From Escherichia phage vB_EcoS_MM-1: DNA of 64,000 nucleotides. Where the stretch lies: sequence record PV577657; one strand, given 5' to 3'. A program made the position numbers and the translations under genes. The notes beneath the pieces are model-generated. The model did no database searches. It was not told the DNA's origin and worked only from the letters and a program-made list of their open reading frames with translations. Positions 4,137 through 39,238 of this stretch are shown piece after piece (within the stretch, counting starts at the first letter, position 1; the number at the start of each line of letters is the position of its first letter).

Positions 4137-4232
4137 GATGTAACTCCTATTAGTTTAATTTAAGGGATTAGATTAACTTAATGTTAATCGTTATATCCCC
4201 CTGAAATAAGGGGATATAAAGTTAACACTAAT

Positions 4233-4484
4233 TTACAATACAGCTTCCCATTTTTCGTTGCGTTGAACAACCTTTACAACATCGCCGGATTTAACGCGAA
4301 CGCTAAAAACGGGCTTGCCGTTGTTACTACGTTCATTTTCAGCGTATACCGCGTCGATTGTATCGAACGGCATAAGCGCCGCACCTTTAATACGTTCGGC
4401 CTTTCCGGTTAATTCATCCGTTTTAGTAACGAAAGGAATGAAGACGAATTGACCAACTTTCGGCGCGGTAATAACGTTTTGCAT
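4233..4484 (-). CDS. hypothetical protein
   Basis: 83-aa ORF. Confidence 0.45.
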   Translation of the reverse strand: MQNVITAPKVGQFVFIPFVTKTDELTGKAERIKGAALMPFDTIDAVYAENERSNNGKPVFSVRVKSGDVVKVVQRNEKWEAVL

Positions 4485-4519
4485 AATATAAACTCCTAGT
4501 TATTTGGGGATTGTTCCGC

Positions 4520-4549
4520 ATTACCTGCTAGAAAGTAACAGCAGGTAAT
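4520..4549. other. 10-bp stem hairpin (attacctgct / agcaggtaat)
   Basis: perfect inverted repeat with 10-nt loop; no flanking U-run on either strand. Confidence 0.5.
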
Positions 4550-4714
4550 AAGTAACAATCCGCTCGCCAATATAATCAATTTTAAAGAACTCCACGTAGG
4601 CCGCTATATCCCGTTAGGGGGCGGGATGCATTATGGTAAGCACCGACCGTCAAATTTTATCAAGTTATCGCTCTTATCGAACTGGGTACATCTTAAAACC
4701 TATCGGCTAGGTTG

Positions 4715-4918: not shown

Positions 4919-5365
4919 ATCGTCGATTCCTTATAATGAATAAGTTTACCGCCGATAGGCTTTAAGATGTACCCAATTTTTAAAGAGCGTGGCGGTAAAC
5001 TTCCCGCCGTGTAGTTCGTCATTGCCGCCCTACGAGATAAATAATAGGGGATTCCCGAAAATGGCGCAACCTTATTTTTGTAAAGAAATGTAAAGGTAAA
5101 ACTCACCGGACACCGTGCGGCGACGGCCTAAAATTAAAAGAAACGGGCGCGCGAATACCACAAAATAAAGCAAATAGGCAAGTAATTTTTTCATTTATAT
5201 TTGCTTTGCCCTACTTGACAAAATCTAAAAAGCTCGTGGTAACGATAAACGGCTTATCCCCTTATGATGGGATGGCTAAAAACTTTATTGCGTTCTGGAG
5301 CGTTTTAGGCGCATTCTAGCCTTGTTGATAACTTATCCCCAAAAGCAAAAATGAAATTTTCCTAG

Positions 5366-5398
5366 TTATCCACTTGACTTTTATTTTCCAGTGGATAA
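5366..5398. promoter_or_regulatory. inverted pair of DnaA-box-like 9-mers
   Basis: TTATCCACT and its reverse complement AGTGGATAA separated by 15 bp (consensus TTATCCACA). Confidence 0.5.
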
Positions 5399-5662
5399 CT
5401 ACTTATTTTATGAAATAAATTAATTGACTTTTATTTGTTAGTATGCATCGGAAAGATAGCAGACTAATAATTGCTAGAATGATAATCATGCTGGTGGATT
5501 GTAACGACCTGAATTATTAGCAGACTATTAATCACGGAAAAATCTCATTAGCCAACTAACTATTTCATGATATATAATATACATATAAATTAATGAGAAA
5601 TAATAACTATAAGAAATCATCTAGCTAAGTGAGAACCACTATCATTTAAGTTATACACAAAG

Positions 5663-5671
5663 TTATCCACA
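5663..5671. promoter_or_regulatory. DnaA box, perfect consensus
   Basis: TTATCCACA. Confidence 0.5.
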
Positions 5672-6025
5672 GCACTTTTTGACTTGACACGATAGGCGGC
5701 GATATAAGGACTTTTACACAGACTTATCTACAGGTTATTCCACTGTATAAATATACAGGGTAAAAAGGTAGTGTTAACAACTGCAATCAATTTTAAGCGG
5801 CTTAAATCGCATTCTAACGAGCTAAACGCTGCGGGGTAATATTAAAGTAAAGCCTTAATGCGTCGCCCTGGTGGCTTCGCCGTGGTTTGCTCTTTATTGC
5901 ACCGCTGCGCGGTTAGCATAAAAATAGGCGCTAGGCAAGGAAAATAAAAAGGTAAAATAATATTTGCCTATGCTAGAAATTTACCTTTATCATTCACTCA
6001 CCGATTAACGAGGGAGGCCGAACAA

Positions 6026-9626: not shown

Positions 9627-9708
9627 TGTGGATAAGTCTGTTAATAACACCCCAAAATGGCTAGGATTCTGTCAAGTCAAATCGTGCTGTTAATAAGTCT
9701 GTGGATAA
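9627..9708. promoter_or_regulatory. two DnaA boxes in direct orientation
   Basis: TGTGGATAA at 9627-9635 and 9700-9708, each beside a ctgttaataa motif. Confidence 0.5.
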
Positions 9709-17331: not shown

Positions 17332-17955
17332 TTAGACATTTATATCACCACGCAATACGGCAGCTACATCTTCCCCTATTTGTAATACTTCACCAGTAGT
17401 GCAGTTGACCACTCTATCATAGCTAGTAAACTTACCTGATACAATATCTTCTAGAGGAATAGGAGTTTTGCTCATCTCAAATGAGACATTGATGTAACGA
17501 GGGTCACGTAGAGAAGTAGTATGTACGTGTCCGTGAATATTTAACTTGCCCCGAAGTTCATTGGGGTGCAAAGGACAATGAGATAGCCAAAACTTTTTGC
17601 CACCACCAGTCTGTTTACCTAGAGCCTGAATATCATCGTAAACTTCTACTAAATCTTTAATACAGAGTCCTTGACGTTCCGCATCGTGGTTGCCCATAAT
17701 AAGTTGATTAGGAACATTGTGGATAACCGACTTTAGCTTGGCCAAGCCTTCACGACCTACTGCAATGTCTCCTAACAAGATGAGTTTAGTACGCTTGCCA
17801 ATGTGCTTGGAGAGAGTATCCAGAATGTACTCGTCATGTTCTTTCATATTCTTAAACCACGGACGGAAACGTAATGCCCCAGGATGATCTAAGTGCAAAT
17901 CCGACCAAAATTTAACTTTCATTATTCTTTCCTTTATTCCGAATAATATTATCAA
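17332..17955 (-). CDS. calcineurin-like metallophosphoesterase
   Basis: motifs SDLHLD, GDIAVGR, GNHD, GHVH; likely true start at internal MKVKF; contains a 14-nt partial copy of the 15-mer repeat. Confidence 0.6.
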   Translation of the reverse strand: MIILFGIKERIMKVKFWSDLHLDHPGALRFRPWFKNMKEHDEYILDTLSKHIGKRTKLILLGDIAVGREGLAKLKSVIHNVPNQLIMGNHDAERQGLCIKDLVEVYDDIQALGKQTGGGKKFWLSHCPLHPNELRGKLNIHGHVHTTSLRDPRYINVSFEMSKTPIPLEDIVSGKFTSYDRVVNCTTGEVLQIGEDVAAVLRGDINV

Positions 17956-34186: not shown

Positions 34187-34264
34187 TGGTGGCTCCCCGA
34201 GGATTCGAACCTACGTACCTTCCGGTTATGAGCCGGGTGCTCATACCATATGAGCTTGAGAACC
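34187..34264 (-). tRNA. tRNA-Met (CAU)
   Basis: anticodon loop CUCAUAA with G-C-rich anticodon stem, D-stem GCTC/GAGC, discriminator A. Confidence 0.55.
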
Positions 34265-36846: not shown

Positions 36847-36887
36847 TTAAATACAGAAAAGCCCGCGCTCTCGTAGGAAACGCGGGC
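36847..36887 (-). terminator. rho-independent terminator of SPFH gene
   Basis: gcccgcg / cgcgggc stem, U-run on minus strand. Confidence 0.6.
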
Positions 36888-36912
36888 TTGGTTCGAAGAT
36901 TACGTGTAACTA

Positions 36913-37860
36913 TTACTTGTTACGCATATCCATGATCATTTGACCATCGTAGCCAGTACCTACCACAGTCTGAGGTACACCACCTTGATACTTCTGAGCA
37001 CGGATCATTTCAACTTCCAGTTGTTTCCAACGAATCATTTCAGGAGTAATGGTACGTTGCAATGCGGCGTTAGCTTCAGCTTCTTTCTTAGCTGCGTACA
37101 GTTTAGCATCTGCGTCACGTTCATTAGCAATAGCTTGGTTGTTACGAGCTTCACGATCTGCTTCTGCTTGTTTAACTTTTTGCTGTGCTTCCTGTTCAAC
37201 GCGAGCAAGTTCAGCTTTCGCAGCATTAACTTGCTCTTCACGAACTTTGGTATTCTGTACCTGTTCCATGATTACTGGCGGCAAGGTAATATCCTGAAGG
37301 AATACCTGCTTAACTGTGTAACCATATGGGCGCGCATACTCTTCAACTTCCTGTTGAATTGCAGTTTGCAATTGAGCCTGAATTTTAGCATCAAATAAAT
37401 CTTGTGCTTTAGGTACAGACTTACCAAACTCACGAATAGTAGACAGTAATTTTTCAGTTACATACTTGTCTAGTGCCTGATCCTGAGTACCTGCGTTAAT
37501 ACGGTTAATCGGTGCTTTAGAACCATCAAACTGCAACATAACAGTCAGGTCAACAGTGGATTTAAACTTATCCTGGCTAGGAACCTGAAGTTTATCTAAT
37601 TTTACAGCAATATCTTTTGTACTAAAAGTATCGAAAGATGCAAACGGGTTTACAAGATGGAAGCCCGGCAATACTGGATTAGGGTCTACTTTACCCAGGA
37701 ATGTTTGGGTTTTAACCGTACCATCAGAAACAATAGTATATGAATTAAAAGCTAGGATTAAACCTGCTAAACCAACTACAGCACCAATACCCCAACGTTT
37801 AATAGTACGAATTACTTTCTGCTCAGAAGTCAGTTCTTTCATATTTTTAGTAGCAAACAT
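36913..37860 (-). CDS. SPFH/Band-7 (stomatin/prohibitin-like) membrane protein
   Basis: N-terminal TM, SPFH-like core, C-terminal Ala/Glu/Gln-rich coiled coil. Confidence 0.6.
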   Translation of the reverse strand: MFATKNMKELTSEQKVIRTIKRWGIGAVVGLAGLILAFNSYTIVSDGTVKTQTFLGKVDPNPVLPGFHLVNPFASFDTFSTKDIAVKLDKLQVPSQDKFKSTVDLTVMLQFDGSKAPINRINAGTQDQALDKYVTEKLLSTIREFGKSVPKAQDLFDAKIQAQLQTAIQQEVEEYARPYGYTVKQVFLQDITLPPVIMEQVQNTKVREEQVNAAKAELARVEQEAQQKVKQAEADREARNNQAIANERDADAKLYAAKKEAEANAALQRTITPEMIRWKQLEVEMIRAQKYQGGVPQTVVGTGYDGQMIMDMRNK

Positions 37861-37894
37861 ATATTTCCTTTGTTTTAGTTACAGTTAATAAAAT

Positions 37895-37969
37895 TGGCCG
37901 AGGTGACAGGATTCGAACCTGCATAAAGGAATTTAGAAGACTCCTGCCTCTCCCTTAGACTACACCCCG
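37895..37969 (-). tRNA. tRNA-Arg (UCU)
   Basis: anticodon loop CUUCUAA, T-loop TTCGAAT. Confidence 0.6.
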
Positions 37970-38803
37970 TTTAAGTATTTTTAAGAACTCTCGTAAAAAC
38001 TCTTAAAAATACAGACGATACCGGGAGAGTCATAAGTCTCACTCATTAAGTATTTCAAGACAAAATACAGTAACGTCTATTATTTTCCAGTTTAAGTCAG
38101 GGTGACTTAGTGGTTATGTCCTGCGGTATATTGAGGACTCGGTTAGGCTTGGGGTCATGACTTCCCACCTTTTGCTGCTACTCAACAGGAGTTATCGCGA
38201 ATTACCTGTGCTATTGTGCACCATTAGTGACATCTCTCATGTCAGCATTTCCCACTTTGTGGATAGCTTGAAAAACTACTCCGATATGGAGAAAGAACTT
38301 CACTATCCTAGAATACCTTCTAAAGTTCTTCTTTAGCCTGGACATAGTTAAATCGTAATAAAACTATTCAGCAGACTGGTTGGTTAGTCTGGAACCAACT
38401 ACCGCGTGGTTTAGGCAGTGCGCAACTAACCTCGGAAGCTTTTATGTTAAAAGCATCAGTTATCCAGTTCTTACCGACCGTAGGATTCGAACCTACATCT
38501 TCCACCAGTTACGGCTTGATAATACCAATTATACTAGGACGGCAGTGTTACTACATAAGTGATTTCCACACCCCACTATTTATAAATCAGAGAAGAGTTT
38601 AGGGGAGAGGTTTCAGACGCCTCATTTTACACGTTCTAGCCACTAACCGGGATTGCCGCCCCCTGTGTACTAGTTTTACAACTAACCCACCGACTCTATT
38701 CAATGCGCTCCGGTTGGGATTCTGCACTCAGCGTAATCGGCTCGCTGTTCCCTAATTTATGAATATATTATACAGAATTTATAAGCATTTAGCAAATGAA
38801 TTT

Positions 38804-39238
38804 TTAGAAAAATTCACTAGCAATCAAAGCAGTTGTTTTACCGTCATAACGTCCGGGAAATTCTGCCTTAATAGTTTTCATTAATAGAGCTTTGGTAATA
38901 CCTGGGTTTAATTTAACCAGTTCTGCAAAATACTCACGAATCTGAACCTCAGTCAGTTGACTTGGCTGATACTCTTGCAGCATGGAATAAAGCAGTTGCT
39001 CATAGTCTACATCAGTAGGAACTTCCATACCAACTTTAATAGCGCGTTGTTTTGCATTTTCTAGAGCCTTAATCTGAGCTTTCAGATAGGCTACGAACTC
39101 GGTTCGAGTAACAATGTCTTTATCAATACGTTGCAGATCACCAATCATGGTCTGAAGATTAAGTGCCCGTTCCTTATCACCGTGAGTACGTGCTAGACTA
39201 AGTAGTGCACGAAGGGTCATTAGAATATTTTCACCCAT
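38804..39238 (-). CDS. hypothetical protein
   Basis: 144 aa. Confidence 0.45.
   Translation of the reverse strand: MGENILMTLRALLSLARTHGDKERALNLQTMIGDLQRIDKDIVTRTEFVAYLKAQIKALENAKQRAIKVGMEVPTDVDYEQLLYSMLQEYQPSQLTEVQIREYFAELVKLNPGITKALLMKTIKAEFPGRYDGKTTALIASEFF

What the first reader, a model, noticed from the sequence alone, without database searches (positions are those of the whole stretch)
37970..38750. 780-bp ORF-free segment with a degenerate tRNA-like element and a DnaA-like box
Segment 38472-38547 has a good T-arm and a near-complementary acceptor but no foldable anticodon arm. TGTGGATAG at about 38259 is a near-consensus DnaA box. No credible ORF is present. This may be a tRNA remnant plus a regulatory or origin-like segment.
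Basis: seen in the sequence. Interest (0 to 1): 0.4.

Follow-up and report, generated by a model that had tools for sequence, protein, structure and literature searches.

The report
Phage T5 rnaX structured RNA gene
The ORF-free stretch is not an origin or a dead tRNA: it is the phage T5 gene rnaX, which makes a large folded non-coding RNA with a built-in tRNA-shaped branch, is conserved across T5-like phages, and still has no known function.

Summary
The window is phage T5. Bases 37970-38760 on the minus strand are the gene that the T5 reference genome annotates as rnaX, "stable RNA with unknown functions".

**Observation.** There is no conserved ORF. A tRNA-like element lies at 38472-38543, scoring 35.5 bits against the Rfam tRNA model. 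A 4-bp stem with a 6-nt loop replaces its anticodon arm. The DnaA-like 9-mer at 38258-38266 is real but at chance level, and it is not conserved even in reference T5.

**What it is.**
- A consensus sigma-70 promoter (38795-38767) drives a transcript of about 790 nt.
- That transcript runs straight into tRNA-Arg.
- 525 phage records carry homologous sequence.
- Versions of 605-1326 nt occur in Tequintavirus, Epseptimavirus, Sugarlandvirus and Hongcheonvirus. A rearranged version occurs in Novosibvirus.
- Invariant sequence islands alternate with hairpins that change by compensatory substitutions: 11/31 and 15/46 pairs changed on both sides, and 0/500 shuffles reached this.

**Limits.**
- No Rfam family other than tRNA matches.
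- The gene is deleted in the viable T5 st0 mutant.
- Function is unknown. The closest analogues in kind are the GOLLD and ROOL phage RNAs.

The locus is already annotated. The family-level structure appears undescribed.

The parts
38767..38795 (-). Promoter (T5 'P16-17'): -35 TTGCTA, 17-nt spacer, -10 TATAAT. The inferred transcription start is about 38760.
   Evidence: Promoter scan. Annotated as promoter P16-17 in NC_005859. The same promoter precedes the RNA in all genera examined.
38748..38760 (-). 5' strand of helix P1 (AUAAAUUAGGGAA). It pairs with 38582-38597.
   Evidence: P1 is predicted in every variant folded, except three where an endonuclease ORF displaced the inferred start. Wobble and compensatory variants were read by eye (L025 GAUG/CAUC, DU_PP_V UAAAGAA/UUCUUUA).
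38598..38747 (-). Optional 5' domain enclosed by P1. It holds the hairpin CAGCG-AGCCGAUUA-CGCUG (38729-38747), whose loop can pair with GUCGGU inside 38684-38701 (candidate pseudoknot).
   Evidence: Absent from reference T5 and R2, where P1 is a plain hairpin. Present at 150-200 nt in this strain, Epseptimavirus and Sugarlandvirus. DU_PP_V and Proteus phage 1 carry GCAGA/UCUGU in place of GCCGAU/GUCGGU (read by eye).
38582..38597 (-). 3' strand of helix P1 (CUCUUCUCUGAUUUAU).
38544..38578 (-). 5' strand (GUGG within UAGUGG) of the long-range helix P2, followed by the invariant 33-nt block GUGGGGUGUGGAAAUCACUUAUGUAGUAACACU (possible GGUGU/ACACU hairpin).
   Evidence: The block is nearly invariant across four genera, and its ends are kept in DU_PP_V and Proteus phage 1. 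The GGUGU/ACACU pairs never vary, so they are untested. P2: T5 GUGG/CCAC, DU_PP_V UACGG/CCGUA, Proteus phage 1 AUGGG/CCCAU (read by eye).
38472..38543 (-). tRNA-like branch. It has a 7-bp acceptor stem (U5-U68 mismatch in this strain), a D arm with G18G19, a T arm with loop UUCGAAU, a 4-bp + 6-nt-loop hairpin in place of the anticodon arm, and no encoded CCA.
   Evidence: Rfam tRNA 35.5 bits. Covariation. ARAGORN gives inconsistent anticodons in relatives. Replaced by other hairpins in EPS7-type, KFSSM, EK80 and Proteus phage 1.
38458..38472 (-). Conserved single-stranded island AAGAACUGGAUAACU.
38438..38454 (-). Hairpin h1 (GCUUUU-AACAU-AAAAGC).
   Evidence: 3 of 6 pairs change on both sides. 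Variants are GCUUC/GAAGC, GCUUAU/AUAAGC, GGUUC/GAACC and GCGUA/UACGC.
38405..38414 (-). Island CUAAACCACG. Its CCAC is the 3' strand of the long-range helix P2 that closes domain 1.
38257..38404 (-). Variable middle region (lineage-specific hairpins). It contains the DnaA-like 9-mer at 38258-38266.
   Evidence: Poorly conserved between T5 types and other genera. DnaA-like site.
38108..38256 (-). Domain 2, closed by AGUGG/CCACU. It holds four hairpins:
- Ha, 38228-38244.
- Hb, 38185-38209, with the conserved loop UAAUUCGCGAUAACU.
- Hc, 38145-38170, presenting the invariant palindrome GUCAUGAC.
- Hd, 38118-38138.
   Evidence: pairs changed on both sides are Ha 5/6, Hb 4/5, Hd 5/5. GGAGUCAUGACC is exact in DU_PP_V, and AAGUCAUGAC is present in Proteus phage 1.
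38081..38107 (-). Invariant hairpin He (AGUCA-CCC-UGACU) followed by the island UAAACUGGAAAAUA.
   Evidence: The pairs never vary, so there is no covariation evidence.
38013..38078 (-). Three-way junction Hf. The closing helix is AGACG/CGUCU, with two hairpins separated by the conserved CUUAAU.
   Evidence: Read. Other lineages use CUGACGG/CCGUCGG or CUGGCAGUAG/CUACUGGCGG as the closing helix. Not formally counted.
37975..38012 (-). Terminal 17-bp hairpin Hg with a UACG loop, ending 5 nt before tRNA-Arg.
   Evidence: Nearly identical in Hongcheonvirus DU_PP_V.
37895..37969 (-). tRNA-Arg(UCU) with encoded CCA, co-transcribed. Its 5' end defines the annotated 3' end of RNAX.
36859..36889 (-). 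First intrinsic terminator of the transcription unit, after the SPFH/band-7 gene (36913-37860).
   Evidence: Annotated as a bidirectional terminator in NC_005859. SPFH domain.

Best explanation
The segment is the phage T5 gene rnaX on the minus strand.

**Shown**
- A consensus early promoter (38795-38767) lies directly upstream, and no terminator lies before tRNA-Arg.
- The interval encodes no conserved protein.
- It is conserved as an RNA secondary structure in at least four genera of Demerecviridae, with a rearranged form in a fifth. That structure consists of:
  - an optional 5' domain closed by helix P1;
  - domain 1, closed by a long-range helix and carrying an invariant 33-nt block, a tRNA-shaped branch and hairpin h1;
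  - a variable middle region;
  - domain 2, with four hairpins and invariant loops;
  - a three-way junction;
  - a terminal 17-bp hairpin.

**Inferred biogenesis**
- Host RNA polymerase starts at about 38760.
- RNase P cuts at the 5' end of tRNA-Arg and so creates the RNAX 3' end.
- Both ends then sit in helices (P1 and Hg), which would explain a stable RNA.
- The internal tRNA-like branch has no encoded CCA, and a possible hairpin abuts its position -1. It is probably retained as a structural tRNA mimic rather than released.

**Inferred function (least certain)**
- RNAX is an accessory, trans-acting structured RNA of the early infection programme.
- It would use its tRNA-like elbow and invariant loops to bind a partner that recognises tRNA shape or those loops, acting as a scaffold or decoy in the tRNA, translation or host-defence sphere. 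It may also bind itself.
- It matters in natural hosts but not in laboratory E. coli.
For: **Identity**
- 100% match to T5-type phages.
- NC_005859 annotates misc_RNA rnaX, 'stable RNA with unknown functions', from promoter P16-17 to tRNA-Arg. The BF23 and DT571/2 records do the same.

**Transcription unit**
- Promoter and terminator scan.

**Non-coding**
-.

**RNA-level selection**
- Alignment A2: 89.9% of cells paired, 11/31 pairs changed on both sides against 4.2 +/- 1.2 in shuffles (0/500), and at most 3 in the slid controls.
- Alignment A3: 92.2% paired, 15/46 against 6.5 +/- 1.9 (0/500), and at most 9 in the slid controls.
- Conserved G-U pairs fix the strand.

**Breadth**
- 525 phage records hold a match.
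- The same layout and islands occur in Sugarlandvirus, Epseptimavirus, Hongcheonvirus and Novosibvirus.
- Islands are exact where the flanking protein T5.081 is only 35-59% identical.

**Dispensability**
- Deleted in T5 st0 and largely lost in phage Ob_P.

**tRNA-like branch**
- It is not a recent tRNA copy, and it lacks the CCA seen at the 3' end of the eight T5 tRNAs printed in that comparison.
Against: - No transcript ends, abundance or processing were measured here. 'Stable RNA' rests on a GenBank note that I could not trace to a paper.
- Global folding energy is not better than shuffles (z = -0.80).
- Several invariant helices (block hairpin, He, AGUGG/CCACU) carry no covariation, so they are untested.
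- Module order differs in Proteus phage 1, and whole modules are gained or lost between strains. That fits a chain of semi-independent modules as well as it fits one globular RNA.
- The sequences fall into a few lineages, so covariation counts are inflated by shared descent.
- Nothing tested here points to a specific partner or target.
Confidence: 0.55

Rival explanations
1. Processing cassette or leader only. The structured region has no trans function. It exists to drive, fold and stabilise the precursor of tRNA-Arg and the downstream SPFH mRNA, with the tRNA-like element acting as an RNase P/RNase Z punctuation mark.
For: - It is co-transcribed with tRNA-Arg and the SPFH gene, with no terminator in between.
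- The terminal hairpin ends 3-6 nt before tRNA-Arg in T5, EPS7 and DU_PP_V.
- The link to tRNA-Arg(UCU) is kept in five genera.
Against: - 600-1300 nt with many invariant loops is far more than the other T5 tRNAs need. They sit 6-10 nt apart.
- In several Epseptimaviruses a 510-nt ORF separates the RNA from tRNA-Arg, and in FZ41 about 200 nt do, yet the RNA is still conserved.
- EPS7-type and Proteus versions lack the tRNA-like fold but keep its flanks.
Confidence: 0.2
2. Array of several independent small stable RNAs, like T5 RNA I/III/IV and T4 species 1/2. These would be cut apart by RNase P, RNase E or RNase III, rather than forming one large RNA.
For: - Mosaic gain, loss and reordering of modules between strains and genera.
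- The T5 tRNA region encodes seven other annotated small stable or tRNA-like RNAs of 73-172 nt.
- A tRNA-like element sits in the middle.
Against: - The long-range helices P1 and P2 enclose 150-170-nt domains and show compensatory change.
- A single promoter and no internal terminators.
- The reference annotation treats it as one 719-nt RNA.
Confidence: 0.15
3. Decaying tRNA-gene debris or a spacer with no function, looking conserved only because the phages are closely related.
For: - It lies in the deletion-prone tRNA region.
- It is dispensable in T5 st0.
- One element is a non-decoding tRNA look-alike.
Against: - Compensatory substitutions in at least 8 helices.
- Islands are exact between subfamilies whose neighbouring protein is 35-41% identical.
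- A consensus promoter is retained everywhere.
- No paralogy to T5 tRNAs.
Confidence: 0.05
4. DNA-level element: a replication origin or DnaA site, or a recognition region for homing endonucleases or recombination.
For: - One DnaA-like 9-mer with 8 of 9 matches.
- The invariant palindromes GTCATGAC and AGTCA-N3-TGACT could bind dimeric proteins.
- HNH endonuclease ORFs are inserted right after the promoter in some relatives.
Against: - The DnaA-like site is at chance frequency and not conserved.
- There is no box cluster here, unlike 5323-5732 and 9627-9700.
- Covariation with G-U pairs is strand-specific and acts at the RNA level.
- Homing endonucleases target conserved genes, so their presence is equally expected for an RNA gene.
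Confidence: 0.05

Closest known systems
T5 rnaX (misc_RNA T5s08 in NC_005859/AY543070; also annotated in BF23 AJ604530 and DT571/2)
   Same: Same locus, strand and limits, from promoter P16-17 to the 5' end of tRNA-Arg. The core is about 93% identical.
   Different: This strain carries a roughly 150-nt 5' domain that reference T5 lacks. It lacks an 82-nt insertion that reference T5 has near He. The annotation gives no structure or function.
GOLLD and ROOL RNAs (large ornate phage/prophage RNAs)
   Same: - Phage-encoded, hundreds of nt long and multi-domain.
- Located in or next to tRNA islands.
- GOLLD has a universally conserved 3' part and a variable 5' part, and sometimes a tRNA in its linker.
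- Unknown function; ROOL is reported as abundant and non-essential.

These properties are taken from bioRxiv 10.1101/2024.12.08.627333, read. RNAX shares the location, the size range, the optional 5' domain, the embedded tRNA-like element and the dispensability.
   Different: No sequence or structure match to either Rfam model at E <= 10. The hosts are Enterobacterales and the carriers are virulent siphoviruses. Multimer or nanocage formation is untested.
tRNA (Rfam RF00005) and tRNA-like stable RNAs of T5 (RNA1, RNA2, RNA3)
   Same: Acceptor, D and T arms, an elbow-forming G18G19 with a T loop, and a score above the Rfam threshold. The T5 annotation lists other 'tRNA-like stable RNAs' in the same region.
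   Different: No 7-nt anticodon loop, no encoded CCA, and mismatches at 1-72 or 5-68. It is embedded inside a larger helix-closed domain, and other hairpins replace it in some lineages.
Bacterial Y-RNA-like YrlA and mascRNA-type tRNA mimics
   Same: A tRNA-shaped module inside a longer non-coding RNA. 3'-end formation by RNase P at a downstream tRNA is the MALAT1/mascRNA logic (from general knowledge).
   Different: No Rfam Y RNA hit. No recognisable Ro-binding helix was identified. The mimic here is internal and probably not released.
T4 species 1 and species 2 RNAs (rnaC, rnaD)
   Same: Stable RNAs of unknown function encoded within a phage tRNA cluster and co-transcribed with tRNAs (from general knowledge).
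   Different: They are roughly 120-140 nt, while RNAX is 0.6-1.3 kb and multi-domain. No similarity was tested.

Membership tests
T5 rnaX (annotated stable RNA) | Same position and strand between promoter P16-17 and tRNA-Arg, with homologous sequence | tested here: met
   The AY543070 rnaX feature lies under the match, 93% identical over query positions 162-791.
T5 rnaX (annotated stable RNA) | Accumulates as a stable RNA in infected cells | not testable with these tools
   This rests only on the GenBank note. No paper was found.
tRNA | Score at or above the Rfam RF00005 gathering threshold | tested here: met
   35.5 bits against 29.
tRNA | Anticodon arm of 5 bp with a 7-nt loop giving a consistent anticodon | tested here: not met
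   - A 4-bp stem with a 6-nt loop takes its place.
- ARAGORN makes no call in the window and gives Ser(act) or SeC(tca) in relatives.
- DU_PP_V has a 5-bp stem with a 5-nt loop.
tRNA | 3' CCA encoded, as in the bona fide T5 tRNAs | tested here: not met
   The 3' strand GGUCGGU is followed by AAGAAC. All eight T5 tRNAs printed end in CCA.
tRNA | Acceptor and T helices maintained by compensatory change | tested here: met
   Pairs changed on both sides: acceptor 4/7, T stem 2/5.
DnaA-dependent origin / DnaA box cluster | Several DnaA boxes clustered beside an AT-rich unwinding element | tested here: not met
   There is one 1-mismatch site in 780 bp. The window-wide count is 32 against 19.2 expected.
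DnaA-dependent origin / DnaA box cluster | Box conserved in relatives | tested here: not met
   It reads CTACCAACA in reference T5, and the sequence is unrelated in Epseptimavirus and Sugarlandvirus.
GOLLD / ROOL | Match to the family covariance model | tested here: not met
   No hit at E <= 10 in three permissive scans.
GOLLD / ROOL | Phage-encoded large multi-domain RNA beside a tRNA island | tested here: met
GOLLD / ROOL | Self-assembly into a homo-oligomeric cage | not testable with these tools
   The only lead is the invariant palindromic loop GUCAUGAC.
tmRNA / RNase P RNA / group I-II introns / 6S / Y RNA | Match to the family model | tested here: not met
   ARAGORN finds no tmRNA. Rfam gives no hit.
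Protein-coding gene | An ORF kept open in relatives | tested here: not met
   every ORF of 25-60 aa is disrupted in some relative 80-98% identical at the DNA level.

The most novel reading that the evidence does not exclude
RNAX is the founding member of an undescribed class of large 'ornate' phage RNAs in Demerecviridae. It would be functionally analogous to GOLLD/ROOL but unrelated in sequence. It would self-associate through the invariant palindromic loop GUCAUGAC (a kissing dimer or higher multimer). It would display a covalently attached tRNA mimic, and initially tRNA-Arg, to capture a tRNA-recognising host factor or defence nuclease during early infection.
Probability: 0.2. Interest if true: 0.8.

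Novelty: already known. Interest (0 to 1): 0.5.

Why it matters
T5 is a classic model phage. Its tRNA region has recently been shown to counter retron and PARIS defences through phage tRNAs (papers listed).

A promoter-driven structured RNA of 0.6-1.3 kb with a tRNA mimic has been annotated in that same region for about twenty years without structure, family or function. It is conserved across at least five genera and is dispensable in laboratory hosts.

If it belongs to the same functional world as GOLLD and ROOL, it offers a genetically tractable E. coli/T5 system for asking what large phage RNAs next to tRNA islands do. Even if not, it deserves an Rfam family, so that hundreds of genomes stop annotating it as 'tRNA-OTHER', 'tRNA-Sec' or spurious hypothetical proteins.

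Tried and rejected
- **Rfam.** Four scans covered the window, seven relatives and two permissive sub-scans. Only tRNA matched; the other hits are far below their thresholds.
- **tmRNA.** ARAGORN finds none.
- **Thermodynamic stability.** z = -0.80 on the minus strand and -0.65 on the plus strand, which is uninformative.
- **Paralogs in the window.** Only promoter and T-arm repeats turned up.
- **Similarity to E. coli genomes.** None at E <= 10.
- **IMG/VR pattern scans.** They returned the same cultured T5-like genomes.
- **Metagenome scan.** The 16-base degenerate pattern was too loose.
- **Literature.** Nothing on RNAX or T5 stable RNAs in the searchable library. The Rad anti-retron gene is a nearby protein, not this locus.
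- **Start-stop mini-ORF** (AUG UAG UAA inside the invariant block). Rejected because DU_PP_V has ACG UAA there.
- **Internal promoter** from the TATAAT in the D arm. Rejected because there is no -35 element and reference T5 reads TATAAA.
- **Complementarity between the flanks of the tRNA-like branch.** None found by eye.
- **YqeY link.** The Pfam match of T5.081 is sub-threshold (18.1 bits against 27), so it is only a lead.
Full report
**1. Where we are**

The window is a T5-type Tequintavirus. Bases 37800-38900 are 100% identical to several T5-like genomes. The window carries a minus-strand array of about 20 tRNA genes.

The finding lies between tRNA-Arg(UCU) at 37895-37969 and the stop codon (38804-38806) of a 144-aa ORF at 38804-39238, both on the minus strand. 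The reference T5 record NC_005859/AY543070 annotates exactly this interval as misc_RNA rnaX (T5s08), 'stable RNA with unknown functions'. In that record the feature is preceded by 'promoter P16-17' and abuts tRNA-Arg. The BF23 tRNA-region record and DT571/2 carry the same annotation. T5 has seven further annotated small stable or tRNA-like RNAs in this region.

I found no paper describing RNAX in the searchable library.

**2. Checking the observation**

- *ORF-free.* The longest ORFs are 42-60 aa. All are destroyed by frameshifts or stops in relatives that are 80-98% identical.
- *tRNA-like element.* Rfam's tRNA model hits 38472-38543 on the minus strand at 35.5 bits (threshold 29), with the anticodon arm left unaligned. 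ARAGORN does not call it here. In relatives it calls Ser(act) or SeC(tca), an inconsistency typical of a non-decoding element.
- *DnaA-like box.* TGTGGATAG is at 38258-38266, an 8/9 match on the minus strand. Sites with at most 1 mismatch occur 32 times in the window (19.2 +/- 4.8 expected). This one reads CTACCAACA in reference T5 and is absent elsewhere. It is a chance match.

**3. Transcription unit**

- A consensus promoter, TTGCTA-17 nt-TATAAT, lies at 38795-38767 on the minus strand.
- It belongs to the repeated T5 early-promoter family in the window.
- The start is inferred at about 38760.
- The next terminator on that strand is at 36889-36859, after the SPFH/band-7 gene.
- RNAX, tRNA-Arg and that gene are therefore co-transcribed.

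Below, RNA coordinates are r = 38761 minus the window position.

**4. Comparative anatomy**

*Distribution.* BLAST finds homologs in 525 phage records. I extracted the RNA from promoter to terminal hairpin in about 40 loci. Lengths run from 605 nt (phage R2) to 1326 nt (Klebsiella phage EK80); this strain has about 790 nt.

*Pattern.* Universally conserved sequence islands are separated by hairpins whose sequences differ but whose pairing is kept, and whole domains are present or absent.

*Layout in window coordinates*:
- Helix P1: 38760-38748 paired with 38597-38582.
- Optional 150-nt domain enclosed by P1: 38747-38598. It is absent in reference T5.
- 5' strand (GUGG within UAGUGG) of a long-range helix, then an invariant 33-nt block: 38578-38544.
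- tRNA-like branch: 38543-38472.
- Island AAGAACUGGAUAACU.
- Hairpin h1: 38454-38438.
- CUAAACCACG, whose CCAC closes domain 1: 38414-38405.
- Variable middle: 38404-38257.
- Domain 2: 38256-38108, closed by AGUGG/CCACU, with hairpins Ha, Hb, Hc and Hd.
- Invariant hairpin He and island UAAACUGGAAAAUA: 38107-38081.
- Three-way junction Hf: 38078-38013.
- 17-bp terminal hairpin Hg: 38012-37975, ending 5 nt before tRNA-Arg.

**5. Is the structure real?**

| Measure | Alignment A2: block, tRNA-like branch, h1 (18 sequences) | Alignment A3: domain 2 to 3' end (15 sequences) |
|---|---|---|
| Cells that pair | 89.9% | 92.2% |
| Cells that pair in slid controls | 32-50% | 30-47% |
| Pairs changed on both sides | 11 of 31 | 15 of 46 |
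| Same, in shuffles | 4.2 +/- 1.2 (0/500 reach it) | 6.5 +/- 1.9 (0/500 reach it) |
| Same, in slid controls | at most 3 | at most 9 |

In A3 the helices with most support are Ha (5/6 pairs), Hb (4/5) and Hd (5/5).

Conserved G-U pairs would be A-C mismatches on the other strand, so the minus strand is the RNA strand.

The long-range helices are supported by eye only:
- P2 is GUGG/CCAC in T5, UACGG/CCGUA in DU_PP_V and AUGGG/CCCAU in Proteus phage 1.
- The loop-to-downstream pairing in the 5' domain is GCCGAU/GUCGGU in T5 against GCAGA/UCUGU in those two phages.

Caveats:
- The sequences fall into a few lineages, so cell counts overstate independent events.
- The block hairpin, He and AGUGG/CCACU never vary and so carry no covariation evidence.
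- Global folding energy is unremarkable (z = -0.80).

**6. The tRNA-like branch**

- Acceptor and T stems covary, even among close T5 strains: A5-U68 in reference T5, U5-A68 in BF23, U6-A67 in L028. This strain has a U5-U68 mismatch.
- G18G19 and the T loop UUCGAAU are kept, so an L-shaped elbow is likely.
- The anticodon arm is a 4-bp, 6-nt-loop hairpin with compensatory changes: AGCC/GGUG, UGGC/GCCG and GGGC/GCCU.
- It has no close T5 tRNA paralog (best 53 of 72 identities, centred on the T arm). It also lacks the encoded CCA seen in the eight T5 tRNAs printed in the comparison.
- In other lineages the arms are remodelled (Spivey, KFSSM, EK80). In EPS7-type and Proteus phage 1 the whole cloverleaf is replaced by another helix-closed insert, while the flanking islands stay.
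- It therefore behaves as a branch of a larger RNA, not as a free tRNA or a dying one.

**7. Breadth and selection**

- The same layout (promoter, then 0.8-1 kb of ORF-free sequence with these islands, then tRNA-Arg) occurs in two further genera:
  - Hongcheonvirus DU_PP_V, subfamily Mccorquodalevirinae. GGAGUCAUGACC is exact and the terminal hairpin is nearly identical.
  - Novosibvirus Proteus phage 1, in rearranged order.
- A homolog of the upstream gene T5.081 accompanies the RNA:
  - 41% amino-acid identity in DU_PP_V and 35% in Proteus phage 1.
  - Its Pfam YqeY match is sub-threshold.
  - The copies in this strain and in reference T5 are only 59% identical, whereas the RNAX core is about 93% identical in nucleotides.
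- Homing-endonuclease ORFs have inserted just behind the promoter in some Epseptimaviruses, as often happens at conserved genes.
- The gene is nevertheless dispensable. The T5 st0 deletion removes it entirely, and phage Ob_P has lost everything 3' of the T arm.

**8. What it is not**

- No Rfam 15 family other than tRNA matches in the window or in relatives. That includes GOLLD, ROOL, RNase P RNA, tmRNA, introns, 6S and Y RNA.
- There is no similarity to E. coli genomes.

**9. How it most likely works**

*Shown:*
- It is a promoter-driven, non-coding locus under selection for RNA secondary structure.

*Inferred:*
- RNase P cleavage at tRNA-Arg makes the 3' end.
- With P1 sequestering the 5' end and Hg the 3' end, the RNA should be stable.
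- The internal mimic lacks CCA, and a possible hairpin lies directly against its position -1. It is probably not excised.

*Function.* My best guess, at about 0.5, is an accessory trans-acting scaffold or decoy. It would present a tRNA-like elbow and invariant loops to a tRNA-recognising or loop-specific partner. This fits a genomic region whose tRNAs are known to counter host defences. The invariant palindrome GUCAUGAC in the Hc loop is present in all five genera and suggests self-association. That is a hypothesis only.

*Rivals:*
- A pure processing or leader cassette (0.2).
- A chain of separate small RNAs (0.15).
- Junk (0.05).
- A DNA-level site (0.05).

**10. Comparison and novelty**

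As a locus it is already annotated as rnaX.

In kind it most resembles GOLLD and ROOL. Those are phage-borne, lie beside tRNA islands, are large and of unknown function. GOLLD has a variable 5' and a conserved 3' part and sometimes a tRNA in its linker, and ROOL is reported as non-essential. RNAX fails their model-based membership test.

The comparative structure, the family breadth and the tRNA-mimic-as-branch reading appear undescribed in the sources I could search.

Interest is moderate. This is a tractable, long-overlooked RNA in a model phage, but with no functional evidence yet.

Noticed in passing
window 5323-5732; also 9627-9635, 9700-9708, 17718-17726: A dense cluster of DnaA-box-like 9-mers: 7 sites in 410 bp, one of them perfect. 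There are further perfect boxes near 9.6-9.7 kb. The BF23 paper (PMC10644984) describes DnaA boxes in the non-coding region at the first-step/second-step transfer boundary (8.6-10.3 kb) of T5-like genomes. The 5.3-5.7 kb cluster was not examined.
   Followed up: partly
window 38145-38170 (loop of hairpin Hc) and 38095-38107 (hairpin He): The 8-nt palindrome GUCAUGAC is invariant in all five genera and sits in a G-C-closed hairpin loop. He (AGUCA-CCC-UGACU) is built from the same two half-sites. Possible kissing-loop dimerisation, or alternative pairing between Hc and He.
   Followed up: no
window 38804-39238 (minus strand, T5.081 homolog): This strain's protein is only 59% identical to the reference T5 copy, although the adjacent RNA core is about 93% identical. 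The locus is therefore mosaic. Its Pfam YqeY (GatB tail-like) match is below threshold (18.1 bits against 27). Its homologs sit upstream of rnaX in four genera.
   Followed up: partly
L009, L042, L048 (KFSSM 1017-1499), L060 (Ob_P about 4176-4655): An HNH/homing-endonuclease ORF is inserted between the rnaX promoter and the invariant block in some Epseptimaviruses, replacing the P1 domain.
   Followed up: no
L060 (Obesumbacterium phage Ob_P) 4663-4770: The tRNA-like element is fused at its T arm to the 3' end of another tRNA (…GGTTCGAGTCCCAGGCGGTCTACCA), and the rest of rnaX is missing. This looks like a natural deletion by recombination between T-arm repeats.
   Followed up: no
L007 (T5 reference), about 82 nt inserted relative to window ~38095: Reference T5 carries an extra hairpin flanked by a duplication of He plus UAAACUGGAA. 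Conversely, the window has a 150-nt 5' domain that the reference lacks.
   Followed up: partly
window 34190-34264 (minus strand): Rfam calls a tRNA here (40.3 bits) that ARAGORN misses. By position next to tRNA-Ser(GCU), it corresponds to the T5 tRNA-Ile2(CAU) annotation.
   Followed up: no
L009, L010, L049 (Epseptimavirus), between rnaX and tRNA-Arg: A 510-nt hypothetical ORF is inserted between the terminal hairpin of RNAX and tRNA-Arg in several Epseptimaviruses. Its identity was not examined.
   Followed up: no
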